64,000 nucleotides of DNA from Bryobacterales bacterium (GTDB taxonomy: Bacteria; Acidobacteriota; Terriglobia; Bryobacterales; Bryobacteraceae). Every line of letters starts with the position of its first letter. Within the stretch, counting starts at the first letter, position 1. This document shows positions 26,239 to 41,461 of this stretch, one piece after another. Under the pieces are notes generated by a model. The model was not told where the DNA came from. It did not search any database and saw nothing but the letters and a program-made list of their open reading frames with translations. The DNA is taken from the NCBI GenBank assembly GCA_003157745.1, contig PMKM01000242.1, forward strand, positions 67,375 through 131,374, in the 5' to 3' direction. Position numbers and translations under genes: made by a program.

Positions 26239-26367
26239 GCTTCATTTCCAAAGCAAAGTTTTTTTGGCCGCGATTGTCTCAATTTGCGCATCGCACGCCC
26301 TTTCCTGTACGGGACGACCGAGTCCTATACGTTGATTAGCAATATACCACGGACGGCGATTAGACCA

Positions 26368-27396: not shown

Positions 27397-27418
27397 ACCA
27401 ACCTTCAGGAGGTTATTG

Positions 27419-27757
27419 ATGCACTTCACTCAAACGATCCGCCGCGCAGGACGCGGCATCAACCATCACGCGCTCATGGCCCTGGTGCTCGGGTTCTGCG
27501 CGCAACTCCACGCTTCGTCGTCGGGCACGCTTCCGTGGGAGAAGCCGATGACGACCATAGCCACCTCGCTTACCGGCCCGGTGGCCTATGCGATCGGGCT
27601 GATCGGCATCGCGATTGCCGGCGGCACGATGCTCTGGGGTGGTGAACTCACCGAGTTCGGCCGGCGCGCCTGCATGATCGGCCTGGTCGTGTCGGTGTTG
27701 GTATTCGCCGCGCCAATGTTATCCAGCGCGTTCGGCGTCTCGGCGGCGGTGGTGTAA
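27419..27757 (+). CDS. trbC: TrbC/VirB2 pilin precursor
   Basis: The ATG at 27419 lies 6 nt after AGGAGG. It has a long leader and two hydrophobic helices (GPVAYAIGLIGIAIAGG, CMIGLVVSVLVFAAPML). Positioned after trbB. Confidence 0.85.
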   Translation: MHFTQTIRRAGRGINHHALMALVLGFCAQLHASSSGTLPWEKPMTTIATSLTGPVAYAIGLIGIAIAGGTMLWGGELTEFGRRACMIGLVVSVLVFAAPMLSSAFGVSAAVV

Positions 27758-27760
27758 GGT

Positions 27761-28081
27761 ATGGACTCCGCGAACAGGCCAAGAGAAGTTGCCATCCACC
27801 AGTCCGTCAATCGGCCGAACCTGGTCCTCGGCGGCGACCGCGAGCTCGTGCTCGTCACGATTATGGTCAGCGTCAGCCTGGGATTCAGTCTGGCCACCTG
27901 GTGGGGCATTGGCTTGAGCGTGGTGTTCTGGGTGGCAGCGATGGCGGCCTTGCAGCGCATGGGCAAGGCCGACCCGCTCCTCCGGCACGCCTACCTGCGC
28001 CACGTGGGCTACCGCAACTTCTATCCGGCGAAGAGCGGGCTGCACTCGCAGACGCTTCCCACGCCGCTCAATTGGAGGTGA
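27761..28081 (+). CDS. trbD: TrbD (VirB3 family)
   Basis: About 106 aa with a central TM hairpin; RPNLVLGGDRELV is typical of VirB3/TrbD. Positioned between trbC and trbE. Confidence 0.85.
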   Translation: MDSANRPREVAIHQSVNRPNLVLGGDRELVLVTIMVSVSLGFSLATWWGIGLSVVFWVAAMAALQRMGKADPLLRHAYLRHVGYRNFYPAKSGLHSQTLPTPLNWR

Positions 28082-28083
28082 CG

Positions 28084-30516
28084 ATGCAGATTACGGAACA
28101 TCGCAGTCGTGCCCGCGGCTTGGCCGATCTGCTGCTATACGACGCGCTGGTCGAAGACGGCATCCTGCTGCAACAGGACGGATCCTTGCTGGCCGCCTGG
28201 TCGTATCGCGGTCCCGACACGATGTCGTCCTCGGCCGCTGAGATGGCGGCACTCAGTGCGCGCCTGAACAGCGTGCTGCGTCTCGGCAGCGGTTGGATGG
28301 TGCAGTGTGATGCCATCCGGTCGCAAGCGCCCGGCTATCCCGATCCCGGCGCCTTTCCGGACCTGGTCACGCGAGTCATCGACGACGAACGTCGCCAGCA
28401 GTTCACCGCCGAAGGCTCCCACTACGAGAGCGAGTATTTCCTCAGCCTCACCTACCTGCCGCCGGTAGAGGCAGAAGAGAAGCTCAAGGGCTGGATGTTC
28501 GAGGGCAACGCGCACCATGCGGAGGCGGCCCAACTCATCCTTGACCGCTTCCGCGCCCGGCTGGAAGCCTTCGAGAACATCTTCGGTCAGATCTTCCGGG
28601 TCGAGCGGCTCCGGCTCGGCGGCGGCGACCAAGATCCGCTTCTTCGATACATTCACCGCTGCCTCACCGGCAACGACCATCCGATCCTTCTCCCGCAGAT
28701 CCCCGCCCACCTCAACGACCTGCTTGCCTCCGAAGATTTCTGCGGCGGCATCGAGCCGCGAATCGGCCGCAAGCATATCCACATGATCGCGATTGACGGC
28801 CTGCCCCGCAGCAGTTCGCCCGGCCTGCTCCGCGAGCTCGATTCCATTCCCATTGAATATCGCTGGAACACGCGCGCCCTGCTCATCGATCCCGAAGAGG
28901 CACGGGCTCTGCTCGACAACACGCGGCGGAAGTGGCGCTCGAAGATCCGCGGCTGGAAGGACCAGATCTTCCACACGCAATCCGGCCCGGTGAACATGTT
29001 CGCCCAGGAGATGGCGGCCGATGCGGAGACTGCCATGGGCGTCGCCAGCGCGGGCGATGTCCAGTTCGCAGAGTATTCTTCGAACCTCGTCCTTCTCGAT
29101 GAGGACCGCGCTCGCCTCCAGGAGAGCACGCGCCTGGTGATGAAGACCATCCAGAACCTGGGCTTTGCGTGCCGTCTGGAGACCATCAACGCGATTGAGG
29201 CCTGGCGCGGCAGTCTCCCCGGCGATGGCTACCGCAACGTGCGCCGCACGCTTCTGCACACGCTGAACCTGGCGGACCTTCTTCCAACCAGTTCCGTCTG
29301 GGCTGGCCAGCGTGAGAATCCATCGAGCCTGATGCCGAAGCACAGCGCGCCGCTACTGTACGCCGCCACGTCGGGCGCCACGCCGTTCCGCTTCAACCTC
29401 CACGTTTCGGACCTCGGCCACACGCTGGTCTGCGGCCCATCTGGTGCGGGAAAGTCGACGCTGCTCGGTTTGCTCGCTGCGCAGTGGTTCCGCTACGACC
29501 GCGCCCAGGTCTTCGCGTTCGACAAGGGCTACTCGCTTTACGTCCTCAACAAAGCGTCTGGCGGTGAGTTCTACGACCTGGCCGGACCGAAGACACACCT
29601 AGCGTTCTGCCCGCTCCGCGAACTGGACGACGATTCGGACGTCACCTGGGCGGTCGGCTGGCTAGAGGCGCTCTGCGTTCTCAACAACCTTAAGGTGACA
29701 CCGAAGCACCGCAACGCACTCACCGAGGCCGTCCTGCAACTCCGCCTCTCGCCCTCGCGCACCCTGACCGAACTCAGCGCGAACGTGCAGGACATGGAGG
29801 TCCGCGACGCCCTCCAGCACTACACGCTCGCCGGGCCGCTCGGCTCGCTGCTCGATGCTGACGAAGATCTCCTCGGTGACGGGCGATTCCTGACATTCGA
29901 AACGGAGCACCTGCTTCAACTCGACGACAAGAGCGTGCTGCCGGTGCTGCTCTACCTTTTCCGCCGTATCGAAAAGCGCCTAGATGGCTCACCCACGCTG
30001 GTGCTGCTCGACGAAGCCTGGGTCTACCTTCGTCACGGCCTGTTCCGCGAACGGATGCGCGATTGGCTCAAGACGCTGCGCCGCATGAACGGTGTCGTCG
30101 TCATGGCCACCCAGCAACTCAGCGACGTCTGCAATTCCGAAATCGCCGACGTGATCCTAGAGAACTGCCCGACGAAGATCCTGCTGCCGAACGCCGAAGC
30201 TCAGACGCCGAACTCGAAGGCATTCTATGACCGTGTCGGCCTCAATGACACCGAGTTGAGCCTGCTGCAAACGGCCGTGCCGAAGCAGCACTACTACGTT
30301 CTCTCCCCCTTGGGGCGGCGGTTGATCTCGCTCGGACTTGGCAAGGTCACGCTGTCCTTTGTCGGCGTCAACGGCACTGAAGAGCGGCGCGGCTTCGACG
30401 AAGTCGCTGCCACCTCGCCCGACTGCTGGCGTTCCGAATGGTTGCGATTCCGTGGCCTGGAGAAGTGGGCCGCGTATCTCGAAGAAATGGAGGCTTCCTC
30501 ATGCGTAAACGTCTGA
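28084..30516 (+). CDS. trbE: TrbE (VirB4 ATPase)
   Basis: Walker A GPSGAGKST and Walker B LVLLDEAW. About 810 aa from the ATG at 28084, which lies 2 nt after the trbD stop. Confidence 0.9.
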   Translation: MQITEHRSRARGLADLLLYDALVEDGILLQQDGSLLAAWSYRGPDTMSSSAAEMAALSARLNSVLRLGSGWMVQCDAIRSQAPGYPDPGAFPDLVTRVIDDERRQQFTAEGSHYESEYFLSLTYLPPVEAEEKLKGWMFEGNAHHAEAAQLILDRFRARLEAFENIFGQIFRVERLRLGGGDQDPLLRYIHRCLTGNDHPILLPQIPAHLNDLLASEDFCGGIEPRIGRKHIHMIAIDGLPRSSSPGLLRELDSIPIEYRWNTRALLIDPEEARALLDNTRRKWRSKIRGWKDQIFHTQSGPVNMFAQEMAADAETAMGVASAGDVQFAEYSSNLVLLDEDRARLQESTRLVMKTIQNLGFACRLETINAIEAWRGSLPGDGYRNVRRTLLHTLNLADLLPTSSVWAGQRENPSSLMPKHSAPLLYAATSGATPFRFNLHVSDLGHTLVCGPSGAGKSTLLGLLAAQWFRYDRAQVFAFDKGYSLYVLNKASGGEFYDLAGPKTHLAFCPLRELDDDSDVTWAVGWLEALCVLNNLKVTPKHRNALTEAVLQLRLSPSRTLTELSANVQDMEVRDALQHYTLAGPLGSLLDADEDLLGDGRFLTFETEHLLQLDDKSVLPVLLYLFRRIEKRLDGSPTLVLLDEAWVYLRHGLFRERMRDWLKTLRRMNGVVVMATQQLSDVCNSEIADVILENCPTKILLPNAEAQTPNSKAFYDRVGLNDTELSLLQTAVPKQHYYVLSPLGRRLISLGLGKVTLSFVGVNGTEERRGFDEVAATSPDCWRSEWLRFRGLEKWAAYLEEMEASSCVNV

Positions 30517-31217
30517 TTGCCGTCGCCGTGCTCGTTGGGATGGCGGGCACGCTCACGCCCGTTGCTCAGGCTGGCGCGTTCGCGACGGAGGTGACTCAAC
30601 TACTGAACCACGCTCAACTCGTCATGCAGTACATCCGGCAGGGCGAGCAACTGGTCAACGAAGTCAAGATGTACGAGAACATGCTCCGGAACACAAAGCA
30701 GCTCTCGGGGCAGACCTTTGGCGCGATTCAGTCCGACATCAGCGCCCTTGCCAACATCGTGCAAGGTGGCATGGCGCTTTCGTACTCGCTCGCGAACCTC
30801 GATGGCGAGTTTCGCGCCCGCTATCCCAACTACGGCTACTCGGCCAACACCTACTACAAGGACTACGCCAAGTGGTCGCAGACCTCGATGGACACCACGC
30901 TCGGGACGCTGCGCGCCGCTGGCTTGCAGGGACAGCAGCTTCAGAGCGAACAGACGGTGCTGGCCAGCCTGCGCACGATGTCGCAGACCTCAGACGGGCA
31001 GATGCAGGCGTTGCAAGTAGTCAGCCAGATTGCCGAACAGCAAGTCCAACAGCTCATGAAGCTGCGGGAGCTGATGATGGCCGACATGTCGAGCAAGCAG
31101 GCGTACCAGGCGACGACAATTCAACGGCAGTCGGCGAGCGAAGCGGCAACCCAGCGGTTCTTCACCTGGACGCCCGAGAAGTCGGACGGGAAGACCTACC
31201 AGTCGGGGTGGAAATGA
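30501..31217 (+). CDS. trbJ: TrbJ (VirB5 family)
   Basis: Signal peptide MRKRLIAVAVLVGMAGTLTPVAQA. Helical, Q-rich body. Positioned after trbE, which it overlaps. Confidence 0.8.
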   Translation: MRKRLIAVAVLVGMAGTLTPVAQAGAFATEVTQLLNHAQLVMQYIRQGEQLVNEVKMYENMLRNTKQLSGQTFGAIQSDISALANIVQGGMALSYSLANLDGEFRARYPNYGYSANTYYKDYAKWSQTSMDTTLGTLRAAGLQGQQLQSEQTVLASLRTMSQTSDGQMQALQVVSQIAEQQVQQLMKLRELMMADMSSKQAYQATTIQRQSASEAATQRFFTWTPEKSDGKTYQSGWK

Positions 31218-31552
31218 GGGCCATGATGCGACTTCTTCTTGCGGTGACCTTGATCGCGCTGGCGGGTTGCTCCGTTCGCGAGCGGCCCAGCGCCATCGTC
31301 CAGCGTGCGGAAGCGGCTGGCTCGGGCAGGCTGGACTCGGCGTCGTCTCTCGCGATGCAGTCCTGGCTCGAACGCCATCGGGATGTCGCGGCAGAGTTGG
31401 ATCGTATGTGCGCGCCGGTTCGCGAGAAGGCCCAGGCGGAGTGGCAAGACACGACCGAAGGCCGCGTTTGTGCCGCTTCGCGCAATGTCGTGATGACCAC
31501 GTTCAAGCGCCTCGAAGGCGATCACAAGACCTACGGCGCGGGGTGGAAATAG
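31214..31552 (+). CDS. Small lipoprotein in the trbK position (possible entry exclusion protein)
   Basis: ATGA overlap with trbJ. Lipobox LIALAGC. 112 aa, located between trbJ and trbL. Confidence 0.6.
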   Translation: MRAMMRLLLAVTLIALAGCSVRERPSAIVQRAEAAGSGRLDSASSLAMQSWLERHRDVAAELDRMCAPVREKAQAEWQDTTEGRVCAASRNVVMTTFKRLEGDHKTYGAGWK

Positions 31553-31553
31553 C

Positions 31554-32783
31554 ATGGCGAAGCGACCGTCAGTGCTCCGGGCCGGCTTCTTCTTGCTGCT
31601 GATGGCGGGTTGCGCGCTCGCGCAGACGGCCACCGCCCCGAGCCAGATCCTCGACCAATACCGTGACCAGCGCATCACCTGGTTCACGAACGTCTGGCCC
31701 TACGCCAACACGCTGTTCGGCTTGCTCGCCGTAATCGAGTTTGCCTGGAGCGCGGCCGTGATGCTGCTCGAAAAGTCGGACATGCAGTCCTGGACCGCCG
31801 CGCTGGTGCGCAAGATCATGTGGCTCGGCGCGTTCTACACGCTGTTGGTTTATGGGCGGTGGTGGGTCCCGGCCATCGTGAACAGTTTCGAGCAGATCGG
31901 CCAGACCGCCTCCGGCACTGGCCCGATGTCGCCCACCGATGTCTTCCTGCGCGGGCTGAACATTGGCGGCGCCATGATGGACGCCGCCAGTTCCTCGGCG
32001 TTCTTCACCAATACCGGCGCCTGCCTGGCGCTGGTTTTCGCCGCGGCAATCACCGTCCTCTCCTTCATCGCGATCACCATCCAGTTCATCGTGGCGATGG
32101 TTGAGAGCTATATCGTCGTGGCGGCCGGCATCATCTTCCTCGGCTTCGGCGGCTCGCGCTGGACCGCGCCCTACGTGGAGCGCTACATCGGCCTCGGCGT
32201 CTCCACCGGCGTCAAGATCATGCTGCTCTACCTGCTGATGGGCACCGGGATGAACGTGTCCCTTGGGTGGATCGATGCCGCGACGGCAATCGGCACATCC
32301 TCGAAACCTGCCATGAACGCTTTCGAGATCATGGGGGCCTCGCTCATCTTCATGATGCTCTGCTGGCAGATTCCGAAGCTGTTCGCAGCGGTTCTCGGAG
32401 GCTCTCCCGCATTGTCAGGCGGCGATCTTGCCGCGATTGGAGGGACTCTGGCAACTGGCGCGATGCTGGCTGGCACCGCAGGCCTCGGCGGTGCCGCGGT
32501 TGCTGGTGGTGCCGGAGCTGGGGCAGGAGCGAGTGCCGGTGCGGGTGGCAGCTCCGGCGCTGGGATGGCGACCGGGGCGGGCGCAAGCGTTGCTCCTCCT
32601 TCAGCGCCCTCGACGGCGACGGTCGGGGCAAGCACTTCTTCCCAGCCCGACCCGCCCAGCCGGAGTTCGGTCGCGCCAGTAATGGACGCGGCGCGAACCA
32701 TGCGGGGCATGGGCAACATGGTCCCCTCTGACGCGGCCCCGCACACGCCGCCGCCACGCATGAACATCGATCACCAGGAATAG
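31554..32783 (+). CDS. trbL: TrbL (VirB6 family) polytopic membrane protein
   Basis: Multiple TM helices and a Gly/Ala-rich C-terminal tail. Conserved position in the operon. Confidence 0.85.
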   Translation: MAKRPSVLRAGFFLLLMAGCALAQTATAPSQILDQYRDQRITWFTNVWPYANTLFGLLAVIEFAWSAAVMLLEKSDMQSWTAALVRKIMWLGAFYTLLVYGRWWVPAIVNSFEQIGQTASGTGPMSPTDVFLRGLNIGGAMMDAASSSAFFTNTGACLALVFAAAITVLSFIAITIQFIVAMVESYIVVAAGIIFLGFGGSRWTAPYVERYIGLGVSTGVKIMLLYLLMGTGMNVSLGWIDAATAIGTSSKPAMNAFEIMGASLIFMMLCWQIPKLFAAVLGGSPALSGGDLAAIGGTLATGAMLAGTAGLGGAAVAGGAGAGAGASAGAGGSSGAGMATGAGASVAPPSAPSTATVGASTSSQPDPPSRSSVAPVMDAARTMRGMGNMVPSDAAPHTPPPRMNIDHQE

Positions 32784-32794
32784 GAGAAACGGCG

Positions 32795-33460
32795 TTGAGT
32801 TCACCGGACACGAAACTATACAACCCCTACCTCGCGGCCCGCCGCGATTGGGACGAACGCTACGGCAATCTCATCTCCCGCGCGAAGAACTGGCGACTCA
32901 TGGCGCTCGTCAGCGGCGTGGTGGCGTTGGCAGCGGTCATTGGGATGGCCGTCCTTGCTACGCGCTCGCGTATCATTCCCTTCGTCGTCGCCATCGATTC
33001 ACTCGGCCGACCGGTTGCCACCGGCGTCGCCGAACAGGCATCCAGCGCGGATGATCGTCTGAAGCGGGCGACCGTTCTGAGTTGGGTTGAAGACTTGCGT
33101 ACCGTCACCACCGACGGCATCGCGCAACGGCGTTCGATTGACCGCGTCTACGCGCACATTGCGAACGGCAGCCAGGCGCAGCCGTTCGTCACCGAGTTCT
33201 ACCGGAACGATCCGCCGCAGAAACGCGCCCAGACCGAGACCACCAGCGTCGATGTGAAGTCCGTTCTGCCCACCAGTGACCGGACCGTCGAAGTCGAGTG
33301 GATCGAAACGACGCGCGACCTCTACGGGACCGTGAAGACAGAAGAGCGCTGGAAGGGATCGTTCACGATTGCCGTCAGCCCGCCCAGCGATGAGCGCTTG
33401 GCGCGCGTGAACCCGCTTGGTGTTTATGTGACGAATGCCAGTTGGACCAGAGTGCTTTAG
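32795..33460 (+). CDS. trbF: TrbF (VirB8 family)
   Basis: NPYLAARRDWDERYG is the typical TrbF N-terminus, followed by one TM helix. The TTG start is preceded by AGGAGA. Confidence 0.85.
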   Translation: MSSPDTKLYNPYLAARRDWDERYGNLISRAKNWRLMALVSGVVALAAVIGMAVLATRSRIIPFVVAIDSLGRPVATGVAEQASSADDRLKRATVLSWVEDLRTVTTDGIAQRRSIDRVYAHIANGSQAQPFVTEFYRNDPPQKRAQTETTSVDVKSVLPTSDRTVEVEWIETTRDLYGTVKTEERWKGSFTIAVSPPSDERLARVNPLGVYVTNASWTRVL

Positions 33461-33477
33461 GAACGGGAGACACAGCT

Positions 33478-34485
33478 GTGCGACATCATCGATTTATCAT
33501 CGGAACTCTTGCGCTGGCCAGCCTGGCGATGGCGCAGACGAAGCCTAAGGGCCAGTCTTCGGGCTCGGTCCTCGACAAGTACGATTTCGGCGAGCAGGTG
33601 CGCGTTCTGGAGGGTGCGCAACCCGCTACGCCAGGCCCAGCCCCTGCGAAGCGCGTCCCGATTGCCCGCGCGGCAGAGAAGCCGGTTGAGGTGAAGGCAG
33701 ACGTGCCGCTCACTCCGACTGCCGAAGAGGCCGTCCGCGTGAGCGCCCAGTGGATGACGTCAAAGAATCCGCCAGCCGCCGGCCCGGACGGAAAGGTCCT
33801 GTACTCGTATGGTGCAGGCCTTCCGACCGTCGTCTGTGCGCCGCTGCGGGTCTGCATCATCGAACTTCAGCCCGGTGAGAAGCTGATGGGCGAGCCGCAG
33901 ATCGGCGATTCAGTCCGCTGGAACCTCGCGCCGGCATCCTACGGCAAGGCCGATGACCTAACCTCAGTGATCGTGCTCAAGCCGCAGTCCTCGGGCCTCG
34001 ATACCAACCTACTCATCACAACGGACCGCCGCGCCTATTACCTGCGCTTGATCTCGAAGCCTGAAGAATACGTCGCGCGAGTGGCGTTCGCGTACCCCGA
34101 TGGTGACGACCGCAAGTGGCGTGAGCACCTGGCGCAGCAACGCGAGGAACAGAAGGTCGCCGACCGCAATAGTCAGTTGACTCCCGCGGCCATCGCCATC
34201 GGGAACCTCTGCTTCGACTACTCCCTCAAAGGCGGAGATGAGAACGTTCGCCCGTTGCGCGTCTTCGACGACGGCGCGAAAACCTACATCCAAATGCCTG
34301 CCGGTGTGCAGAACCGCGAGGCCCCCGCACTGGTGGTCGTCGGCGCGGACGGAAAGAGCGAGATGCTCAACTACCGTGTGAAAGACCAGCTCTACATCGC
34401 GGACCGCCTCTTCGATCATGCCCAGCTCATTCTCGGCACCGGCAAGAAGGCCCAGAAAGTGGAGATCACCCGTGAGCGAAAGTAA
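33478..34485 (+). CDS. trbG: TrbG (VirB9 family)
   Basis: Signal peptide (GTG start after GGGAGA). RVFDDGAKTYIQMP matches the TrbG/VirB9 C-terminal signature. Confidence 0.85.
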   Translation: MRHHRFIIGTLALASLAMAQTKPKGQSSGSVLDKYDFGEQVRVLEGAQPATPGPAPAKRVPIARAAEKPVEVKADVPLTPTAEEAVRVSAQWMTSKNPPAAGPDGKVLYSYGAGLPTVVCAPLRVCIIELQPGEKLMGEPQIGDSVRWNLAPASYGKADDLTSVIVLKPQSSGLDTNLLITTDRRAYYLRLISKPEEYVARVAFAYPDGDDRKWREHLAQQREEQKVADRNSQLTPAAIAIGNLCFDYSLKGGDENVRPLRVFDDGAKTYIQMPAGVQNREAPALVVVGADGKSEMLNYRVKDQLYIADRLFDHAQLILGTGKKAQKVEITRERK

Positions 34486-35797
34486 ACCCATCGAATCGCC
34501 TGCCGGGCTCGACGTGAACCCGAAACCGCCAAATCCGATCCGCGTGAGCAAGCGGGCGGGCGCTTTCGCTCTTGTCATCGTGATGCTCATCCTCGGCGCG
34601 TTCGCCTTCGGTGGCTATCGCCGTCAGCAGATCCAGCAGGCCAAAGCGGCGGACCTCGGGAACAAGGGCGTAGCACCTGCCACATTGGCGGGCTCGGAAG
34701 TCGCCAAAGACATTCCCTCGGGTAGCGTGCCACTCGCGAAGCCCGCCGCGTCTGACCTGGTCGCGCCCGAGGACGTGAAGGCTTCGAACAACACGACACC
34801 GCCTCCGGCCACGACGCCTGTTGTGGTTCGGCAGTACCCACCGCAACCCGCGATGCCGCAGTACGAAGCTCCGCGGACTCCGTCGCCCGAAGAGCAGGAG
34901 CACGCCGCGGCCTACTCCCGAGAGCAACAGGCTCGCATGGCTCCTACCTCAGCTCGCCAAAACAGCGTCTCCGGTTGGACGCCGGACGTGTCTGTCCCCA
35001 CAGCGCGGCCGACCGCAGAGTCAACGCCCAACCTCGCCTCGCTCGTAAACTCCATAGCAGGAGGCCAATCACAGAACGGCGGCCGGCAGCCTTCCGAGTA
35101 CGACGAACAGAACATGCAATCGCGTAAGGACGCGTTCCTCGCCAACAACCGAACCGCATCTTCCGGTGACTACTTGCGCTCGACCCGCACCGCCCCGCTT
35201 TCCCAATTCGAAATCAAAGCGGGCTGGGAAATCCCGGCCGTCCTGGAGCAGGCTATCAACTCCGATCTGCCCGGCGAGCTGAAGGCACTCGTCATGTCGA
35301 ACGTCTACGACACCGCCACCGGCCGTTATCTCCTCATCCCGCAAGGTTCGCGTCTGGTCGGCATCTACGATTCGCACGTCGGCTACGGCCAGGATGGCGT
35401 TCAGGTCGTCTGGAATCGCATCATCTACCCCGACGCCTCCACGCTCGACCTCGACGGCATGATGGGCCTCGATTCTCACGGCAACGCCGGGCTGCGGTAT
35501 CAGGTCGATCACCACTACAAGCGCCTGATCGGCTTCGCGGTGCTGACCAGCATGTTCACTGCGGCATACGAAATCTCGCAGAACCGCCGTCAATCAGTCC
35601 TGACGACTCCCAGCACCGGCCAGACCGCAAGCGCCGCTGTCGGGCAGGAGATGTCCCAACTCGGCTCGCAGATCACGCGCCGCAATCTCAACGTACAGCC
35701 GACCATCAAAATCCCAGTCGGCTACAAGTTCAACGTCCGCGTCAACCGCGACATCTTGTTCGAGGCGCCGTATGCGCCGATGAGGGCCGCCCGCTGA
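34472..35797 (+). CDS. trbI: TrbI (VirB10 family)
   Basis: The N-terminal TM helix is followed by a Pro-rich linker. The C-terminal segment VVWNRIIYPDASTLDLDGMMGLDSHGNAGL is VirB10-like. The GTG start overlaps the end of trbG. Confidence 0.85.
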   Translation: MSESKPIESPAGLDVNPKPPNPIRVSKRAGAFALVIVMLILGAFAFGGYRRQQIQQAKAADLGNKGVAPATLAGSEVAKDIPSGSVPLAKPAASDLVAPEDVKASNNTTPPPATTPVVVRQYPPQPAMPQYEAPRTPSPEEQEHAAAYSREQQARMAPTSARQNSVSGWTPDVSVPTARPTAESTPNLASLVNSIAGGQSQNGGRQPSEYDEQNMQSRKDAFLANNRTASSGDYLRSTRTAPLSQFEIKAGWEIPAVLEQAINSDLPGELKALVMSNVYDTATGRYLLIPQGSRLVGIYDSHVGYGQDGVQVVWNRIIYPDASTLDLDGMMGLDSHGNAGLRYQVDHHYKRLIGFAVLTSMFTAAYEISQNRRQSVLTTPSTGQTASAAVGQEMSQLGSQITRRNLNVQPTIKIPVGYKFNVRVNRDILFEAPYAPMRAAR

Positions 35798-35819
35798 CGG
35801 CTCGTTTTGAGGAACCCTT

Positions 35820-36026
35820 ATGACTGAACTGGCCGCACGTCGGGAGATCCTAACCCTTCATGAGGTCGCCGAGATCCTCCGCTGCTCGAAAACCCACGTA
35901 TCCAACGTGATCAACGGCAAGGTTGCCGGAGTGCCGAGGCTGACGCATCTGGCGATGGGCCGCCGCAAGCTCATCCGCCGCGCCTGGCTCGATCAATGGA
36001 TGGAAGCGAATAAATCGCAATGTTAG
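35820..36026 (+). CDS. Excisionase/AlpA-like HTH DNA-binding protein
   Basis: 68 aa. LTLHEVAEILRCSKTHVSNVI is HTH_17-type. GAGGA RBS. It lies directly upstream of the integrase gene. Confidence 0.7.
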   Translation: MTELAARREILTLHEVAEILRCSKTHVSNVINGKVAGVPRLTHLAMGRRKLIRRAWLDQWMEANKSQC

Positions 36027-36079
36027 CATCGGAACTATGCCAGTCATCGCCGCTGGAGGCGCAGGAAAGCGAGAAACAA

Positions 36080-37183
36080 ATGCGTCGAAGGCGGTTCCAG
36101 CGTGGCTCTCTGCGGCCACGGAAACGCGAAGGGAGAGTGTATTGGTACGCGCAGTGGCGGGAGCATGGCGACCCGAAGTCCAAGGAGTTGGGACTTTGCT
36201 CGACCCTCTCCCGTGCTGAGGCGGAGACGATGCTTGCCGCTATTCTCCAACCGATCAATGAGGGCATCGGCAAGCCACAGAAGCCGGTTTGGACGTTCAA
36301 AGGGTTCATCGATTCGGTGTACCTTCCAGTCTTCCGAGGCAAATGGAAGGCATCGACCGCGATGACCGAAGAGAACCGGGTTCGAGTTCACCTGGTCAAA
36401 GGCCTGGGTTCCACGCTAATGGCCAAGATAGAAAGGGAGGACCTGCAGAAGTTCTTGAACAAGAAAGCTAGGTCGATAGCGAAGGGCGGTATGGACCAGT
36501 TACGTTTCCGGTTGCGTTCGATCTTCGCGCTCGCCGTCAGCGAAGGCGTTGTGGACCGGAACCCGGCGACATCGCTCTACACTCCGCGGGACTGCAAGAA
36601 GACCGGGGAGAAGCGCATCCTCACACCGGAGCAGATTGGCACGCTCATGGGTGCTCTCGAAATGAGGGAGCGGCTCATCGTGCAGTTCGCAACCTACGAA
36701 GGGATGCGGCCAGGCGAAATCCTCGGCCTGCAGATGGGCGATGTAGATGGCAACTCGGTCTGGGTTCGCCGGCGGCTGTACAAGGGCAACATCGACGTGC
36801 CCAAAACACGCCGCTCCGAGCGCCAGGTGGCGCTATCGGACTCAACCACAGCGCTGCTGCACGAGTGGCTTGGGCTCATCGGGGACATCAGCCCGGAGAC
36901 GTGGCTGTTTCCTTCGGAGACGTTCAAGTCGCCGATCCGGCGGGACAACATCTGGCGGCGGTGTATGCTCGCGAAGCTCCGCAAGGTGAAGCTGGAGTGG
37001 GCGACGTTCCAGGTGATGCGCCGAACCTTTGCTACGAACTCGAAGAAGGCCGGCGTGGACGCTCATACGCGATCGGCGCAGATGGGCAACACCGTCGATG
37101 TCAACGAGAACGAATACGCGGTCAGCACGTTCGAAGATCGGCTGGCTGCGGTTCGCAAGGTGGAAGCCACTGTCATTCAGTGA
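36080..37183 (+). CDS. Tyrosine site-specific integrase
   Basis: The N-terminal RRRFQRGSLRPRKREGRVYWYAQW is an arm-binding type segment. The catalytic region contains GMRPGEILGL, HEWL and FQVMRRTFATN. It lies next to the tRNA fragment. Confidence 0.9.
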   Translation: MRRRRFQRGSLRPRKREGRVYWYAQWREHGDPKSKELGLCSTLSRAEAETMLAAILQPINEGIGKPQKPVWTFKGFIDSVYLPVFRGKWKASTAMTEENRVRVHLVKGLGSTLMAKIEREDLQKFLNKKARSIAKGGMDQLRFRLRSIFALAVSEGVVDRNPATSLYTPRDCKKTGEKRILTPEQIGTLMGALEMRERLIVQFATYEGMRPGEILGLQMGDVDGNSVWVRRRLYKGNIDVPKTRRSERQVALSDSTTALLHEWLGLIGDISPETWLFPSETFKSPIRRDNIWRRCMLAKLRKVKLEWATFQVMRRTFATNSKKAGVDAHTRSAQMGNTVDVNENEYAVSTFEDRLAAVRKVEATVIQ

Positions 37184-37353
37184 CAGTGCCGGGGAGCGCT
37201 CGATGTCAGAGGCTCTTCGCGACAAGGGAAACGCGAGGGATTTCGAAAGACGGTCGGAGGTCGCAGTGGGAACTCTGATCGGGGCTTGGGAAGCTTAACG
37301 CAGTAAACGCAGTAATGACTGATTTCGTGATTGGCTGTAAGTTATTGAAAAGA

Positions 37354-37399
37354 TGGAGCGGGAGACCGGATTCGAACCGGCGACGTCCAGCTTGGGAAG
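37354..37399 (-). other. 3' 46 nt of a tRNA-Gly(CCC) gene (anticodon loop through CCA) with no 5' half: the att junction of the conjugative element
   Basis: The minus strand reads CTTCCCAAGCTGGACGTCGCCGGTTCGAATCCGGTCTCCCGCTCCA. This gives the anticodon loop TTCCCAA, the 3' anticodon stem, the T arm GCCGG-TTCGAAT-CCGGT, the acceptor 3' strand and CCA. The upstream sequence has no GCGGGAG acceptor strand and no D arm. Confidence 0.75.
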
Positions 37400-37732
37400 T
37401 TGAGCGACACTTTAATATCAGTTATTTAGAGAGCGCAGGTGTTGGTTTGGAGAGTACCGAGACACCTGGAAAATCAGCGGTGAACCGCGAGCGCCCTCTT
37501 AATGGAGTGCAATTGGAGTGCACCGGCCAAAAACAGCCAGGGAACCCAGTTCACTAACAACCCCCACAGACAATTGGTAGGGTTATTCGCCCTGCGCATC
37601 CGCCGAGTTGGCTGGATGCCGCCAGAGGGCAGATTGTGTCTTCCATCACCCCCGCCCTCCTTCTTGCACTTCGTGACCGAAGACAACAATGGCCTGCGCG
37701 CCAACGCAGGCTATTTACCCTAGGGGTGAAAA

Positions 37733-39817
37733 TTGAATTCTCTCAACGGCAGTATACACCACCTCGGCCTTCAAACAAAGGACGGAAATGCAGTCGTCGC
37801 CTGTGCGCTTGACCGAGTAGATGAGAGTGTCCGGCGCGTGCAGAGTGGCCCCGGCGCGCTCGTCGGTGCGGACCTGACTGCGGCCGACTATCGCGCACTG
37901 GAGACGCGTTGGATCGATCGCGCGACCGCAGAGAGTGCGCAACTTCGGCGGGTGGATTCCTCGACCGGCGGCGAGATTGTCGGCCGGAGAAACGGCGACT
38001 ACGCCGGCATTCTCATCCCGTATTTTCATCCTGGGTCTGCGAGCGTCCGGGAGTATCGTCTCCGCCGTGACCACCCCGAGATGGAATATGACACCGCGGG
38101 ACAGCTCAAGCCGCGTCAGAAATACCTCGGCCCGCCGGGTCGTTCGAATATGTTGTACTTCGCACAGGGAACGGCCCCGTCGATGCTGCGCGACGCCGAT
38201 CTGCCAGTTGTCATCGCCGAGGGCGAGTTCAAGACGCTCGCTCTCTGGCGTCTGGCCCATCACAACACGCCAGCATCACCGAGCTTCCTGCCGATCGGCG
38301 TTTCCGGTGTGTACAACTGGCGCGGCACAATCGGCAAGACTGTTGGACCGGAAGGGAATCGCCTGGACGTCAAGGGCGCCATCCCTGACCTCGATTGGGT
38401 CACCTGGTCTGGCCGCCGGGTGATCATCGCCTACGATGCCGACGCAGTTGCCAAAGAGTCTGTTCGCATCGCTCGATCGCAGTTGGCTGCGCACCTGCGC
38501 GGGCGCGGCGGCTTTGTGGGATTTCTCGAATGGGATGTCACAAAAGGCAAGGGCATCGACGATCATCTCGCCGCTGTCGGACCGGAGACCGTGTTCGACG
38601 CGATCAACCACGTCAACTATGCCGCGAACGCTTGGAGAAAGGATTTGCTGCGTGCAAAACCGCCTATGAACAGCACTGAAGGTCGTATTTTGCCAGTCCT
38701 GGCGAACGCCATCGCCGCCTTTCGGCACGCGCCGGAATGGGGCGGCGTGCTCGCTTTCAACGAATTCGGATTCGGGACGGTTGTTCTGAAACCCGCGCCC
38801 TGGGGTGTCGTGACCAACGGCGAATGGACCGATCATGAAGACCGCCTCGCGACGGAATGGTTACAGCGACAAGGAATCCTTGTCTCCGTCGATGTGGCCG
38901 GGCAAGCCGTGCAGACTGCGGCAAGAGATCATCCATTCCATCCGGTCAGAACGTACCTGCAGAGCCTTCGATGGGACGGCGTTCGGCGAGTTGACGGTTG
39001 GCTCTCGACGTACCTAGGCGCCGACGACACAAAATACTCGCGCGCCGTGGGCTCACGCTGGCTGGTCTCCGCCGTGGCCCGCATCTTCCGGCCGGGCGCG
39101 AAGGCGGACTGTTGCCTGATTCTGGAAGGGCCGCAAGGCATTCGGAAATCGACGGCCTTGCGTACGCTTGCCGGCGAGTACTTCACCGACGAACTCGCCG
39201 ACCTTGGTAGCAAGGATGCAGCGATGCAAACGCGTGGCGTCTGGATCATTGAGCTTTCGGAGCTCGACAGCCTCAGCCATTCCGAAGTCGCCCGTATCAA
39301 GGCGTTCATGAGCCGGACGACAGATCGCTTCCGCCCGCCCTACGGAATGCGCCTGGTGGAATCGCCGCGGCAGTGCGTCTTTGCCGGCACGGTCAATCAC
39401 AGCACATACCTCCGCGATGAGACCGGCGGCCGGCGGTTCTGGCCGATCACCTGTGGCCGGATCGAGATTGAAGCTCTTGCGCGCGATCGCGACCAGTTGT
39501 GGGCGGAGGCGAAGGAGCGATTCGACTCCGGAGCCGTCTGGTGGTTGGAAACGGTGGAATTGGTCCGGATGGCCTCGGATCAGCAGATTGACAGGTACGA
39601 GGGCGACCCCTGGGAAGAAGTTATCGCACCGTGGCTGGAGCACCGGCCCAGTGCCTCGATCAGCGAGATTCTTGAAAAGTGCCTCCAGAAGGCACAGGCG
39701 CTGTGGACACAAACTGACAAGAACCGAGCCGCCCGCTGCCTTCGTGCTCTGGGGTGGGACCGATACCGCGAGCGGCACGGGCCGCACCTGGAATGGCGTT
39801 ACCGCAAGTGTGAGTGA
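37733..39817 (+). CDS. Primase-helicase-like replication protein: N-terminal Toprim-like region plus a C-terminal VirE/VapE P-loop domain
   Basis: The acidic Toprim-like segments are LPVVIAEGEFKTLAL and RRVIIAYDADAV. The VirE-type core is DCCLILEGPQGIRKSTALRTLAG...IIELSELDS...FMSRTTDRFRPPYG...CVFAGTVN...GGRRFWPI. The start is uncertain (TTG at 37733). Confidence 0.8.
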   Translation: MNSLNGSIHHLGLQTKDGNAVVACALDRVDESVRRVQSGPGALVGADLTAADYRALETRWIDRATAESAQLRRVDSSTGGEIVGRRNGDYAGILIPYFHPGSASVREYRLRRDHPEMEYDTAGQLKPRQKYLGPPGRSNMLYFAQGTAPSMLRDADLPVVIAEGEFKTLALWRLAHHNTPASPSFLPIGVSGVYNWRGTIGKTVGPEGNRLDVKGAIPDLDWVTWSGRRVIIAYDADAVAKESVRIARSQLAAHLRGRGGFVGFLEWDVTKGKGIDDHLAAVGPETVFDAINHVNYAANAWRKDLLRAKPPMNSTEGRILPVLANAIAAFRHAPEWGGVLAFNEFGFGTVVLKPAPWGVVTNGEWTDHEDRLATEWLQRQGILVSVDVAGQAVQTAARDHPFHPVRTYLQSLRWDGVRRVDGWLSTYLGADDTKYSRAVGSRWLVSAVARIFRPGAKADCCLILEGPQGIRKSTALRTLAGEYFTDELADLGSKDAAMQTRGVWIIELSELDSLSHSEVARIKAFMSRTTDRFRPPYGMRLVESPRQCVFAGTVNHSTYLRDETGGRRFWPITCGRIEIEALARDRDQLWAEAKERFDSGAVWWLETVELVRMASDQQIDRYEGDPWEEVIAPWLEHRPSASISEILEKCLQKAQALWTQTDKNRAARCLRALGWDRYRERHGPHLEWRYRKCE

Positions 39818-39819
39818 CC

Positions 39820-40050
39820 AGTGTGTTCCCGGTCCGTTCCCAGTATGTTCCCAGTCGCCGACGCTGGAAACCGCGCTGTTGTGCCGGTGTTCCCAGTGTT
39901 CCATGTTGTGAGTTAAACCCCATATATCGACCAGATGCTGGCACGACCCGTTCCTAATAGAACAACAACAGGGAACAAAGGAACACTGGGAACACTGTAT
40001 AGAATCAGAACCTTGGCGGTGGAACGCAATGGGAACTGCTCTGGGAACAG
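39820..40050. repeat. Iteron field of at least 10 GTTCCC/GGGAAC motifs, including a perfect 16-bp inverted repeat; candidate replication origin
   Basis: TGTTCCC-type motifs occur at 39824, 39835, 39846, 39888 and 39897. GGGAAC-type motifs occur at 39971, 39988, 40031 and 40043. GTGTTCCCAGTGTTCC (39887-39902) is the exact reverse complement of GGAACACTGGGAACAC (39980-39995). An AT-rich spacer separates the two arms. Confidence 0.65.
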
Positions 40051-40297: not shown

Positions 40298-40804
40298 TCA
40301 CACCACCACCCTCAGCTTGATTCCGTCGTTCGGCGCGCTCACGAGGTCCTGCTTGGTGCCCAGGTACCGCTCCGTCGTCTGGACTGAAGCGTGGCCCAGG
40401 AGCAACTGGATTTGTTACAACTCGCCGCCGGCGGCGCGGCAGAGCTTCGCGGCGGTCCTTCGACAATCATGGGGGGCGATACCGGGGACGCCGGCTGCGG
40501 TGGCGTACGGCCGGAGCAGTTGCCAGACGACTTTCTCGGAAAGACGCTCGCCCACGGTCTGGTCGCCGCGATTCACGGGCCGGAATACGTATCCGGCGGT
40601 CACTTTGGCCAGGGCGCTCCAGGCGTCAATCGCCACCTTCACCCAGACCGGCATCGGCACGGAGCAGACAAGGCCGTTCAGCAGTACTTGGCGAAGCGCC
40701 AGTATCCGAATGTAGTTGCTCTTTGCATGGAGCGCCCACGCAACAACGTGGGCGCTTGGCCGACCCGAACCATTGTTCCTGGACTTCTGGTGCTCGCAAA
40801 CCAT
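40298..40804 (-). pseudogene. Tyrosine recombinase remnant: 5'-truncated, with an internal deletion and an in-frame TAA
   Basis: The catalytic C-terminus reads HDCRRTAAKLCRAAGGEL-[TAA at 40415-40417]-QIQLLLGHASVQTTERYLG, continuous in one frame. The expected N-terminal two-thirds are missing. Confidence 0.7.
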
Positions 40805-41054
40805 GCGCTCGCGAATCGAGCCGATGAAAAAGGTCGCCCGGATGTTGCGCAGGCACCGCCCGCTACTAATGAACTATTTCAAGGCAAGAAAGCAGTTTTC
40901 CAGCGGTGTGGTCGAGGGGCTGAACAACAAAGCCAAAGTGACCTTGAGAAGATCGTATGGCTTTCGTACCTTCCGCGTCCTGGAACTCGCGCTCTATCAC
41001 ACCCTTGGCAAACTACCAGAGCCGGAGCTCACCCACGAATTCTTCTTACGAGCC
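40760..41054 (+). mobile_element. ISL3-family transposase 3' fragment with its terminal inverted repeat
   Basis: WCSQTMRSRIEPMKKVARMLRRHRPLLMNYFKA...VVEGLNNKAKVTLRRSYGFRTF...LYHTLGKLPEPELTHEF is an ISL3 C-terminus. The end sequence GAATTCTTCTTACGAGCC is the reverse complement of the IR-like GGCTCGTAAGAAGAATTC. No N-terminal part is present. Confidence 0.65.
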
Positions 41055-41461
41055 TCCAGAATTGGGACTCGTACACAGCCAATGCGGACCGCCGATGGCT
41101 GCAACAACTGGTCGAGGCGTTACTCACGACTGACGGGAGCTAACGGCGCAGCGGGACGCAAGGGAGGCGGCGCCGGAAAGCCGAGAAATTGAGTGGCGAC
41201 CCGCGGCGGGGCCCACCAACGAACATGCCGCGCGGCCGAATCCACCACACAGTGCCCCGGGCGCGGCGGGCCTAGAATTGCCCCGAATGCCGCTGCGCCA
41301 CCCGCGCCCCGTGAGCACCCTGGCCCCCACCAAACCAGCAACAAGAGCTAGACTAGTCGAGACAATGGTTTCGCCATTTTGGTTCGCCAAGTTCTGTTCG
41401 ACGGGAATTACGATCCAGTGGAGACTTATTGAACGTTGATCCGCAGGCGACGCGGCCTCCC

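What the first reader, a model, noticed from the sequence alone, without database searches (positions are those of the whole stretch)
37733..40050. Primase-helicase (Toprim + VirE) followed by a GTTCCC iteron field with a perfect 16-bp inverted repeat: P4-like satellite replicon
**Seen in the sequence**
- Immediately after the stop of the 694-aa Toprim/VirE gene (39817) there are at least 10 copies of (T)GTTCCC or its complement within 230 bp.
- They are arranged as a direct-repeat cluster (39824-39902) and an inverted cluster (39971-40048).
- These surround an AT-richer core (39905-39970) that includes ccccatatatcgacc.
- GTGTTCCCAGTGTTCC (39887-39902) and GGAACACTGGGAACAC (39980-39995) are exact reverse complements.

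**Established knowledge**
- In satellite phage P4, the alpha primase-helicase binds the octamer iterons TGTTCACC in ori and crr. That motif is strikingly close to the TGTTCCC motif here.
- Many primase-helicase islands carry their ori just downstream of the rep gene.

**Inference**
- This is the origin of a small integrated replicon (a satellite or mobilisable island).
- Its integrase has since decayed (40298-40804).
Basis: partly seen in the sequence, partly recalled or inferred. Interest (0 to 1): 0.6.

Follow-up and report, generated by a model that had tools for sequence, protein, structure and literature searches.

The report
Island replication origin beside its helicase
The short repeats just after this primase-helicase gene are very probably the replication origin that the enzyme's own tail recognises, a design already proven in staphylococcal pathogenicity islands, here found on an integrated island of a soil Acidobacterium rather than on a P4-like phage satellite.

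Summary
There are eight exact GTTCCC hexamers (13 GTTCC pentamers), four sets in mirror order, around a 44%-GC core. It is the densest such cluster in the 5.8-Mb genome. The only comparable cluster lies after an 81%-identical paralogue 93 kb away.

The same layout follows the stop codon in 32 of 38 related loci (Acidobacteriota). Only the iterons are conserved; the spacers are not. More distant homologues keep the layout with different repeats, and so does a 4.3-kb Gluconobacter plasmid.

The protein is a DnaG-like Toprim primase, a VapE-type SF3 helicase homologous to SaPI1 Rep (PDB 7PDS, E 1e-47), and a predicted winged-helix tail. SaPI origins have this same architecture.

So "iteron origin read by the adjacent primase-helicase" is supported. 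"P4-like satellite" is not:
- There is no second crr-like site and there are no satellite or phage genes.
- The helicase is Rep/VapE-type.

The module is the left end of a tRNA-Gly(CCC) island that lies in tandem with a T4SS conjugative element. The decayed integrase at 40298-40700 is unrelated to the integrases of this island family.

Verdict: a new member of a known kind, of modest interest. Nothing was tested experimentally.

The parts
37355..37401 (-). 3' half of tRNA-Gly(CCC), from the anticodon loop to CCA. It is the att core shared by tandem elements: the right end of the T4SS ICE and the left end of the primase island.
   Evidence: Read directly from the sequence. ARAGORN finds no whole tRNA. 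The same fragment recurs at C133:38395-38453 and on C128. It lies 220-400 nt upstream of the primase gene in 9 relatives. Complete tRNA-Gly(CCC) genes sit at the far end of the islands in G064 and G062.
37402..37530 (.). Conserved arm next to the att core, with two tandem TGGAGTGCA repeats (37503-37511 and 37514-37522). These are probably arm-type recombinase sites at the left end of the island.
   Evidence: Nearly identical in the window and in L020, L022, L025, L026 and L039. L029, L024 and L037 carry CGAGGTA repeats at the same place.
37655..37732 (+). Conserved leader of the primase gene, with a GC-rich hairpin or palindrome (37692-37711) just before the AGGGGTGA ribosome-binding site and the TTG start.
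   Evidence: Alignment A4. The hairpin was flagged.
37733..39817 (+). Primase-helicase-initiator, 694 aa.
- DnaG-like Toprim primase, about aa 60-300: E163-G-E165 and D235-x-D237.
- VapE-type SF3 helicase, about aa 320-620: Walker A G466-K472-S473.
- Winged-helix C-terminal domain, aa 626-692.
   Evidence: - Pfam.
- PDB 7PDS by sequence, E 1.4e-47.
- Fold matches to 7PDS (E 4e-19) and to DnaG RNA-polymerase domains 2AU3 and 5W35.
- CTD model with pLDDT about 90 over the winged helix.
- dN/dS 0.086 against the paralogue.
- Invariant residues from alignment A2.
39823..39856 (+). Outer left iteron set: three direct copies of (T)GTTCCC(A/G)GT at 11-nt spacing, starting 7 nt after the stop codon.
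   Evidence: Conserved in position in relatives.
39887..39906 (+). Inner left iteron set: two abutting direct copies (TGTTCCCAGTGTTCCATGT), 9-nt spacing.
39907..39967 (.). AT-richer core (44% GC) with CATATAT at 39921-39927. This is the presumed melting and priming zone.
   Evidence: GC profile. The core is free of iterons in all relatives, with a weakly conserved TAT element.
39968..39995 (-). Inner right iteron set: three abutting inverted copies (ACAGGGAACAAAGGAACACTGGGAACAC).
   Evidence: This is the most conserved block in relatives: GGAACA..GGGAACA.TGGGAAC.
40021..40049 (-). Outer right iteron set: three inverted copies at 10-12-nt spacing.
40298..40700 (-). Remnant of an unrelated tyrosine recombinase (catalytic C-terminus with an in-frame TAA). 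It is not part of the replicon.
   Evidence: Translation. PF00589 hit with 1 stop. No significant similarity to the island integrases and none in relatives' loci.
40716..41192 (+). 5'-truncated ISL3 transposase fragment. It marks a rearranged right flank.
   Evidence: Pfam DDE_Tnp_ISL3, E 5e-19, matching only profile positions 169-238.
35820..37183 (+). Excisionase-like HTH_17 gene (35820-36026) and an intact tyrosine integrase (36020-37183). These are the right-end module of the neighbouring T4SS ICE, not of the primase island.
   Evidence: Pfam and PHROGs. The T4SS-xis-int block is duplicated at 89% identity on C128 up to 37401, without the primase.

Best explanation
**What it is.** The segment 37733-40050 is a self-contained replicon module of the SaPI Rep/ori type. 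One gene encodes a fused DnaG-like primase, a VapE-family SF3 helicase and a C-terminal winged helix. Its cognate origin starts 7 nt after the stop codon.

**Proposed mechanism (inferred by homology, not shown here).**
1. The winged-helix tails of the protein bind the roughly 10-nt iterons tGTTCCcaGt.
2. The iterons form two outer sets (about one helical turn apart) and two inner abutting sets, in opposite orientation on either side of a roughly 60-nt AT-richer core.
3. Two hexamers self-load, one on each side, and melt the core.
4. The Toprim domain primes, and host polymerase extends bidirectionally.

**Where it sits.** The module is at the left end of an integrative island, immediately after the displaced tRNA-Gly(CCC) half-site. 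In intact relatives such islands run frag - primase - ori - variable cargo - excisionase-like gene - integrase - tRNA-Gly(CCC). In this genome the island lies in tandem with a 66-kb T4SS conjugative element. Its own right end is not recognisable.

The replicon looks intact: the gene is under purifying selection and all iteron sets are present. The island around it is probably a degraded, non-excising remnant.
For: **Shown in this genome**
- The array is unique in the genome, apart from the one after the paralogue.
- The paralogue is 81% identical in protein, with dS 1.29 and dN/dS 0.086. Despite that divergence the two arrays align iteron for iteron while the spacers have diverged.

**Shown in relatives**
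- 32 of 38 loci from other Acidobacteriota have the same four-set layout anchored at the stop codon.
- In a 21-sequence alignment only the iterons are conserved, plus a weak TAT in the core.
- More distant homologues keep the layout with other repeats: GGTCCCAGT, GGTTCACGT, GTGTTCCAGTC, GTTCCCAAC, CTGACG, ATGACGC.
- These repeat variants coincide with changes in helix 3 and the wing of the C-terminal domain.
- Neighbouring genes are not conserved. The gene-plus-array pair is therefore the conserved unit.

**Protein homology and fold**
- The helicase part is homologous to SaPI1 Rep. PDB 7PDS matches at E 1.4e-47 by sequence and E 4e-19 by fold, over nearly the whole Rep chain.
- The N-terminal part matches DnaG RNA-polymerase domains.
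- The C-terminal domain model has winged-helix topology with pLDDT about 90. All its fold matches are winged helices, including the Rep1 C-terminal domain.

**Published description of the SaPI origin (PMC9371898)**
- The winged helix of Rep binds 5-6-nt iterons.
- There are 6-12 iterons immediately downstream of the rep ORF.
- The centre is AT-rich.
- At least 2 iterons lie on each side, pointing in opposite directions.
- The helicase self-loads.

**An autonomous plasmid with the same design**
- The 4.3-kb plasmid pGO128 has a VapE protein as its only replication-like gene. GTGCT iterons run from its stop codon around an AT-rich centre.

**Context**
- Complete islands ending in xis-int-tRNA-Gly(CCC) are seen in G064 and G062.
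Against: - There is no experimental evidence of binding, melting or replication for this family.
- The covariation between iterons and the C-terminal domain is confounded by overall divergence.
- The full-length model is mediocre (pLDDT 64). The matches of the isolated C-terminal domain are individually weak (E above 0.05).
- The core is only moderately AT-rich (44% GC).
- One 54%-identical homologue (L003) shows no obvious array within 390 nt.
- The island here lacks a cognate integrase and a right-hand att site. The origin may never fire as an extrachromosomal replicon in this strain.
- The join of the two G062 contigs is assumed, not shown.
Confidence: 0.82

Rival explanations
1. P4-like phage satellite replicon. 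An alpha-like primase-helicase binds TGTTCACC-like iterons, and the island is a decayed satellite that depended on a helper phage.
For: - The general logic is the same: a fused primase-helicase-initiator with a C-terminal DNA-binding domain and short iterons.
- The primase domain is Toprim/DnaG-like, as in P4 alpha.
- VapE-type helicases are common in phages: 757 phage records match at under 60% identity.
Against: - The helicase is VapE/SaPI-Rep type, not D5/P4 type.
- There is no second crr-like iteron cluster in the island.
- No phage record covers 80% or more of the protein.
- No psu, sid, delta, cos or terminase-like genes lie in the 20 kb to the right. That stretch holds glycosyltransferases, AbiEii, a PLD-SNF2 defence cassette and unknowns with no PHROG hit.
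- Relatives carry variable non-phage cargo, and one carries VirB4.
- The iteron sequence varies freely among homologues, so its likeness to the P4 octamer carries no weight.
Confidence: 0.05
2. The repeats are not an origin but another protein-binding array. They could be a centromere-like partition site, an autoregulatory operator or terminator for the primase gene, or an oriT for conjugative mobilisation by the neighbouring ICE.
For: - Iterated short repeats in mirror symmetry also occur in par sites and operators.
- The array can fold into a long cruciform (z = -5.3).
- The island lies in tandem with a T4SS ICE that has a relaxase.
Against: - There are no ParA/ParB or relaxase genes next to the array, either here or in relatives. 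Only the primase-helicase is linked to it.
- oriT sites usually have one inverted repeat next to nic, not about 10 iterons in four sets around an AT-rich core.
- The same layout is the experimentally defined origin for the homologous SaPI Rep.
- The same layout occurs on a 4.3-kb non-mobilisable plasmid whose only replication-like gene is the VapE homologue.
Confidence: 0.08
3. The module is an evolutionary relic. It is an origin by descent but inactive here, because the island has lost its recombination module and the gene is silent or on its way to decay.
For: - A decayed recombinase and a truncated ISL3 copy abut the array.
- No cognate xis-int-tRNA end lies on the contig.
- Several relatives' genes carry stops or frameshifts.
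Against: - The gene is intact in both copies, with dN/dS 0.086.
- All four iteron sets are complete, and the upstream leader is conserved.
- Some frameshifts in relatives may be long-read assembly errors.
Confidence: 0.35

Closest known systems
SaPI (Staphylococcus aureus pathogenicity island) Pri-Rep-ori replicon: Rep1 of SaPI1 (PDB 7PDS) and fused PriRep5 of SaPI5 (PMC9371898)
   Same: - The SF3 VapE-type helicase-initiator is homologous (E 1.4e-47).
- The primase is fused to the helicase, as in SaPI5.
- The C-terminal domain is a winged helix.
- There are 6-12 short iterons immediately after the stop codon.
- Two groups of iterons in opposite orientation flank an AT-rich centre.
- The module is carried by an integrated mobile island.
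   Different: - The host is a soil Acidobacterium (Bryobacterales/Solibacteraceae-like metagenome-assembled genome).
- The primase domain is a DUF3854 Toprim/DnaG-like domain.
- The iterons are about 10 nt and arranged in four sets (3+2 | 3+3) in a high-GC background, with only a 44%-GC core.
- The carrier is not a phage satellite. It has no packaging or interference genes, integrates at tRNA-Gly(CCC) and lies in tandem with a T4SS ICE.
Satellite phage P4 alpha protein with ori1 and crr (from my own knowledge: Ziegelin and Lanka reviews; origin-binding domain structure 1KA8)
   Same: - One polypeptide combines a Toprim-type primase, an SF3 helicase and a C-terminal winged-helix origin binder.
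- The iterons are short, in direct and inverted orientation.
- The element integrates at a tRNA gene.
   Different: - P4 needs two separate cis sites, ori1 and crr, 4.5 kb apart. Here there is one array directly after the gene.
- The helicase family differs (VapE, not D5/P4 type).
- No zinc-ribbon motif is evident in the N-terminus.
- There are no satellite genes.
- No sequence match to P4 alpha structures was found at E of 1 or below.
Small VapE-encoding plasmids, for example Gluconobacter oxydans pGO128 (NC_003374.1)
   Same: - The VapE helicase with its C-terminal domain is 35% identical over aa 310-679.
- An iteron array runs from the stop codon around an AT-rich centre.
   Different: - The plasmid is autonomous, not integrated.
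- It has no fused Toprim primase.
- Its iterons are different (GTGCTR).
Iteron origins after phage primase-helicase genes reported earlier in this scan (for example e1-1959099, e1-382087)
   Same: The gene-then-array design is the same, and the closest solved relative is the same (7PDS).
   Different: Those are phages or prophages. This one sits on a non-phage tRNA-Gly island of Acidobacteriota.

Membership tests
SaPI-type Rep/ori replicon (self-loading SF3 helicase-initiator with 3' iteron origin) | Rep is a VapE-like SF3 helicase homologous to SaPI Rep | tested here: met
   PF05272 at E 1e-80. 7PDS at E 1.4e-47 by sequence and E 4e-19 by fold. The Walker A motif GxxGxxKS is invariant.
SaPI-type Rep/ori replicon (self-loading SF3 helicase-initiator with 3' iteron origin) | C-terminal winged-helix domain that reads the iterons | tested here: inconclusive
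   - The predicted topology is H-b-H-H-b-b with pLDDT about 90.
- All fold matches are winged helices, including the Rep1 C-terminal domain, but with E above 0.05.
- Iteron variants track changes in helix 3 and the wing.
- Binding itself was not tested.
SaPI-type Rep/ori replicon (self-loading SF3 helicase-initiator with 3' iteron origin) | 6-12 short iterons immediately downstream of the rep ORF | tested here: met
   11-13 copies start 7 nt after the stop codon. The same holds in 32 of 38 relatives.
SaPI-type Rep/ori replicon (self-loading SF3 helicase-initiator with 3' iteron origin) | AT-rich centre with at least 2 iterons on each side in opposite orientation | tested here: met
   There are 5 direct and 6 inverted copies around a 44%-GC core, against a 61% background.
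SaPI-type Rep/ori replicon (self-loading SF3 helicase-initiator with 3' iteron origin) | Specific origin binding, ATP-independent melting and autonomous replication | not testable with these tools
   This needs EMSA, footprinting and a replication assay.
PICI / SaPI phage satellite (the element, not the replicon) | Packaging and helper-interference genes (terS, cpm/ppi-like) and a master repressor next to int | tested here: not met
   No such Pfam or PHROG hits lie between 40 and 59 kb. The cargo in relatives is variable and not phage-like.
P4-like satellite / P4 alpha replicon | Bipartite cis elements (ori1 plus a distant crr) with the same iterons | tested here: not met
   There is only one cluster in the island. 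The only other cluster in the genome follows the paralogous gene 93 kb away.
P4-like satellite / P4 alpha replicon | Satellite genes psu, sid, delta, epsilon and a cos site | tested here: not met
   No hits in Pfam or PHROGs scans of the neighbouring ORFs. A cos site was not searched for.
P4-like satellite / P4 alpha replicon | Alpha-type protein: zinc ribbon, Toprim primase, D5/P4-type SF3 helicase and winged helix | tested here: not met
   - The Toprim and winged-helix parts are present.
- The helicase is VapE-type.
- No Cys-rich zinc motif is seen in aa 1-60.
- No P4 alpha chain matched at E of 1 or below.
tRNA-integrating genomic island (integrative element) | Bounded by a tRNA gene and a direct repeat of its 3' part, with a tyrosine integrase at the tRNA end | tested here: inconclusive
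   - The left boundary is met: the tRNA-Gly(CCC) 3' half is at 37355-37401.
- Relatives show the full structure, frag-primase-ori...xis-int-tRNA.
- In this window no right-hand tRNA or cognate integrase was found.

The most novel reading that the evidence does not exclude
The primase-ori module defines a family of acidobacterial islands that act as hitchhikers of conjugative elements.
- They are replicative integrative islands whose only conserved gene is the initiator.
- They carry hypervariable, often defence-like, cargo.
- They target the same tRNA-Gly(CCC) half-site as T4SS ICEs.
- They accumulate in tandem with those ICEs: int-att-primase junctions occur in the window, L022 and L024.

On this reading they would be excised, amplified from their own origin and moved by the neighbouring ICE, much as SaPIs exploit phages. 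A further possibility is that an origin stranded next to att can fire in place and amplify the adjacent ICE or cargo.
Probability: 0.2. Interest if true: 0.55.

Novelty: new member of a known kind. Interest (0 to 1): 0.35.

Why it matters
**Annotation.** The result gives a concrete annotation for a widespread but unnamed DUF3854-VapE gene in soil Acidobacteriota. It is a replication initiator whose origin can be read off the sequence right after its stop codon.

**A possible tool.** Genetic tools for Acidobacteria are scarce. A compact 2.4-kb gene-plus-origin cassette with a predictable specificity code is a candidate minimal replicon for shuttle vectors in this hard-to-manipulate phylum.

**Reach of the design.** The SaPI Rep/ori design extends beyond Firmicutes and phage satellites, to non-phage integrative islands in a distant phylum.

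**A hotspot.** tRNA-Gly(CCC) emerges as a hotspot where ICEs and replicative islands stack in tandem.

Conceptually this is an expected extension of a known mechanism.

Tried and rejected
Read depth, circular junctions and transcription could not be examined.
- **Literature.** Searches for DUF3854 with VapE, for acidobacterial ICEs, and for P4 ori/crr found nothing usable. Statements about P4 rest on my own knowledge.
- **A frame error, corrected.** A first comparison of the decayed integrase used an out-of-frame translation. It was repeated in frame. The conclusion is that the remnant is unrelated to the island integrases.
- **Right end of the island.** I looked for it and did not find it.
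  - There is no tRNA in the window or contig.
  - There is nothing tRNA-like in the 95-nt gap before addA at 59334-59427.
- **One composite element?** I asked whether ICE-1 and the primase belong together.
  - ICE-1 is duplicated on C128 without the primase.
  - ICE-1 has its own RepB-type primase, relaxase and ParA.
  - They are therefore separate modules.
- **One cognate integrase clade?** The tRNA-Gly integrases fall into at least five clades at 29-45% identity. None is consistently linked to the primase.
- **Promoters.** Sigma-70 promoter scans found nothing. This is not informative for Acidobacteria.
- **Loci files.** They were read with the other tools instead.
Full report
**1. The observation**

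The stop codon of the 694-aa ORF 37733-39817 is followed by a dense repeat field.
- Exact GTTCCC occurs four times on the + strand (39825, 39836, 39847, 39889). It occurs four times on the - strand (39971, 39988, 40031, 40043).
- The rest of the 64-kb window has 21 copies. The window total is not above shuffled expectation, so the signal is in the clustering, not the composition.
- With the pentamer core the array has 13 copies.
- The arms 39887-39902 and 39980-39995 are perfect 16-nt reverse complements.
- In the whole 5.8-Mb, 255-contig genome the hexamer occurs 0.55 times per kb. Eight per 250 bp is the single maximum.
- The core 39903-39970 is 44% GC, against 61% for the window.
- As single-stranded DNA the whole field folds into one long hairpin (z = -5.3). 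This follows from its mirror symmetry.

The phrase 'at least 10 copies of (T)GTTCCC' is slightly generous for the exact hexamer.

**2. A second copy in the same genome**

The next-densest cluster in the genome is at C133:13641-13870.
- It lies directly after a second 694-aa gene on the opposite strand, 93 kb from the first.
- The two proteins are 81% identical, with no gaps.
- Between the two genes dS is 1.29 and dN/dS is 0.086. Neutral sites are close to saturation.
- Even so, the two downstream regions align iteron for iteron while the spacers and the core have diverged.

**3. Relatives**

The gene was sought in related genomes and in one genome per species of GTDB.
- About 50 loci were found. 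Nearly all are from Acidobacteriota metagenome-assembled genomes (Bryobacterales, Solibacteraceae, Terriglobia, Acidoferrales).
- In 32 of the 38 loci, the 300 nt after the stop codon show the same four-part layout:
  - 3-4 direct copies about 11 nt apart
  - a spacer of about 30 nt
  - 2 abutting direct copies
  - a core of 55-70 nt without repeats
  - 3 abutting inverted copies
  - a spacer of about 35 nt
  - 2-3 inverted copies
- Two further loci keep only the left half before a disruption.
- Two loci with no array have truncated or interrupted genes.
- In a 21-sequence alignment only the iterons are conserved, plus a weak TAT in the core. The iteron consensus is tGTTCCcaGt.
- More distant homologues keep the layout with other repeats:
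  - GTTCC/TACGT (L032, L034, L035, L040)
  - GTGTTCCAGTC (L007, L014)
  - GTTCCCAAC (L008)
  - GGTCCCAGT (L004)
  - GGT(T/G)CACGT (L006)
  - CTGACG and ATGACGC in two alphaproteobacterial loci
- One 54%-identical homologue (L003) shows no obvious array.
- Flanking genes are not conserved among loci, so the gene plus its array is the conserved unit.

**4. The protein**

- Pfam gives DUF3854 (Toprim-like, aa 152-285) and VapE-like (aa 409-618).
- The Toprim acidic residues (E163, E165, D235, D237) and the Walker A residues (G466, K472, S473) are conserved across the family.
- The only solved structure found by sequence is SaPI1 Rep bound to DNA (7PDS, E 1.4e-47).
- An AlphaFold model (pLDDT 64) matches 7PDS over nearly the whole Rep chain (E 4e-19). 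Its N-terminal part matches DnaG RNA-polymerase domains (2AU3 at E 9e-6, and 5W35).
- The last 70 residues, modelled separately, form helix-strand-helix-helix-hairpin with pLDDT about 90.
- All fold matches of that tail are winged helices, including the Rep1 C-terminal domain. Their E-values are weak, as expected for a 70-residue domain.
- Each iteron variant listed in section 3 comes with substitutions in helix 3 and in the wing.

**5. Comparison with what is known**

PMC9371898 summarises the SaPI origin as follows.
- Rep is a self-loading SF3 helicase.
- Its C-terminal winged helix recognises penta- or hexanucleotide iterons.
- Six to twelve iterons lie immediately downstream of the rep ORF.
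- The centre is AT-rich.
- At least two iterons lie on each side, pointing in opposite directions.
- Primase and Rep are fused in SaPI5.

Every sequence-level feature is met here.

A 4.3-kb Gluconobacter plasmid, pGO128, adds support. Its only replication-like gene is a VapE homologue, and it has the same design with GTGCT iterons. This type of unit can therefore sustain an autonomous replicon.

Earlier notes of this scan report the same design after primase-helicase genes in more than 40 other genomes, mostly phages. I reached 7PDS independently.

**6. Why not P4**

- P4 alpha shares the general logic. From my own knowledge, P4 needs two cis sites (ori1 and crr) and belongs to a different SF3 branch.
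- Here there is one array, a VapE-type helicase, no zinc-ribbon motif and no match to P4 alpha chains.
- No phage record covers 80% of the protein.
- The 20 kb to the right encodes:
  - glycosyltransferases and a sulfotransferase
  - an AbiEii toxin
  - a PLD-SNF2 cassette
  - unknowns without PHROG hits
- The likeness of TGTTCCC to TGTTCACC is a coincidence of a variable code.

**7. Context**

*The att site and the neighbouring ICE.*
- Window 37355-37401 is the 3' half of tRNA-Gly(CCC) on the minus strand, with no 5' half.
- To its left lie an HTH_17 excisionase-like gene, an intact tyrosine integrase (36020-37183) and a trb/virB T4SS operon (26284-35797).
- Further left lie a RepB-type primase, ParA and a MobA/VirD2-like relaxase.
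- The same half-tRNA recurs at C133:38395-38453, so this 66-kb ICE is bounded by direct repeats.
- Its T4SS-xis-int end is duplicated at 89% identity on contig C128 up to 37401, without the primase.
- The primase module therefore begins a second element, in tandem.

*Relatives.*
- Nine relatives have the same half-tRNA 220-400 nt upstream of the primase. It is followed by a conserved 125-nt arm with two TGGAGTGCA repeats.
- In G064 the order is fragment - primase - ori - ... - HTH_17 - integrase - complete tRNA-Gly(CCC). G062 shows the same order if its two contigs are adjacent.
- Cargo is variable. No ICE-1-type conjugation genes lie within 18-38 kb of the origin in these two. L027 has a VirB4.

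*The right flank in this window.*
- No right-hand tRNA or cognate integrase was found.
- The decayed recombinase at 40298-40700 is on the opposite strand. It is unrelated to the five clades of tRNA-Gly integrases.
- It abuts a truncated ISL3 transposase.

**8. Mechanism proposed**

*Inferred by homology.*
1. Winged-helix tails bind the iterons.
2. Two hexamers assemble on the inner sets flanking the core.
3. The core melts.
4. The Toprim domain primes, and replication proceeds bidirectionally.
5. In an intact island this would follow excision.

*Shown here.*
- the anatomy
- its conservation
- homology to a characterised initiator
- purifying selection on the gene

*Not shown.*
- binding, melting or replication
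- whether this copy is active

**9. Verdict**

The P4-satellite label and the assignment of the decayed integrase are not. This is a clear new member of the SaPI Rep/ori kind, in a new phylum and in a non-phage carrier. Interest is modest.

Noticed in passing
window 37692-37711, and alignment A4 (L020, L022, L024-L026, L029, L037, L039): A GC-rich hairpin or palindrome (GGCCTGCG-n6-CGCAGGC) lies just upstream of the ribosome-binding site of the primase gene. It is conserved in all nine loci, with apparently compensating C-G/T-A changes at two stem positions. It could be an operator or an RNA switch controlling initiator expression.
   Followed up: partly
window 37402-37530: A 125-nt block right of the att core is about 95% identical in six genomes whose primase genes are only about 77% identical. 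It contains two tandem TGGAGTGCA repeats. Three other loci carry CGAGGTA repeats at the same position. These are probably arm-type recombinase sites that come in at least two specificities.
   Followed up: partly
G000 C128:5768-10187 versus window 33000-37401: A second copy of the VirB8-VirB10-excisionase-integrase-att end of the ICE sits on another contig at 89% identity. A different sequence follows the att half-site. The genome therefore holds at least two related T4SS ICEs using tRNA-Gly(CCC).
   Followed up: partly
G000 C133:36961-38453 (outside the window): A third integrase (44% identical to the ICE integrase) is followed by the same tRNA-Gly(CCC) half-site. At least three elements are stacked in tandem on this contig. 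No complete tRNA-Gly(CCC) gene was found in the assembly (41 tRNAs found).
   Followed up: partly
L001 about 9300-9560 (C133 about 13300-13560): In the paralogous copy, an SSB-like ORF converges on the primase gene. It ends at a strong GC hairpin next to the outer right iterons (read by eye; two N bases lie inside it).
   Followed up: no
L008 (G002:C151) 1440-1540: In this relative the primase-helicase reading frame runs about 20 codons further, through the first iterons. Coding sequence and origin overlap there.
   Followed up: no
window 59334-59427 and the GC profile: GC rises from about 57% to 63-68% at about 59.4 kb, where addA/addB-like genes begin. This is the likely right limit of the mobile DNA, but no att-like repeat is present.
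   Followed up: partly
L032, L034, L035, L040, L007, L008, L016, L049, L051 origin cores: Many relatives have an alternating purine-pyrimidine tract (GCGCGCACGCGTATA-like) in the origin core. The window has a plain CATATAT instead. The tract may be a conserved unwinding or Z-DNA-prone element.
   Followed up: no
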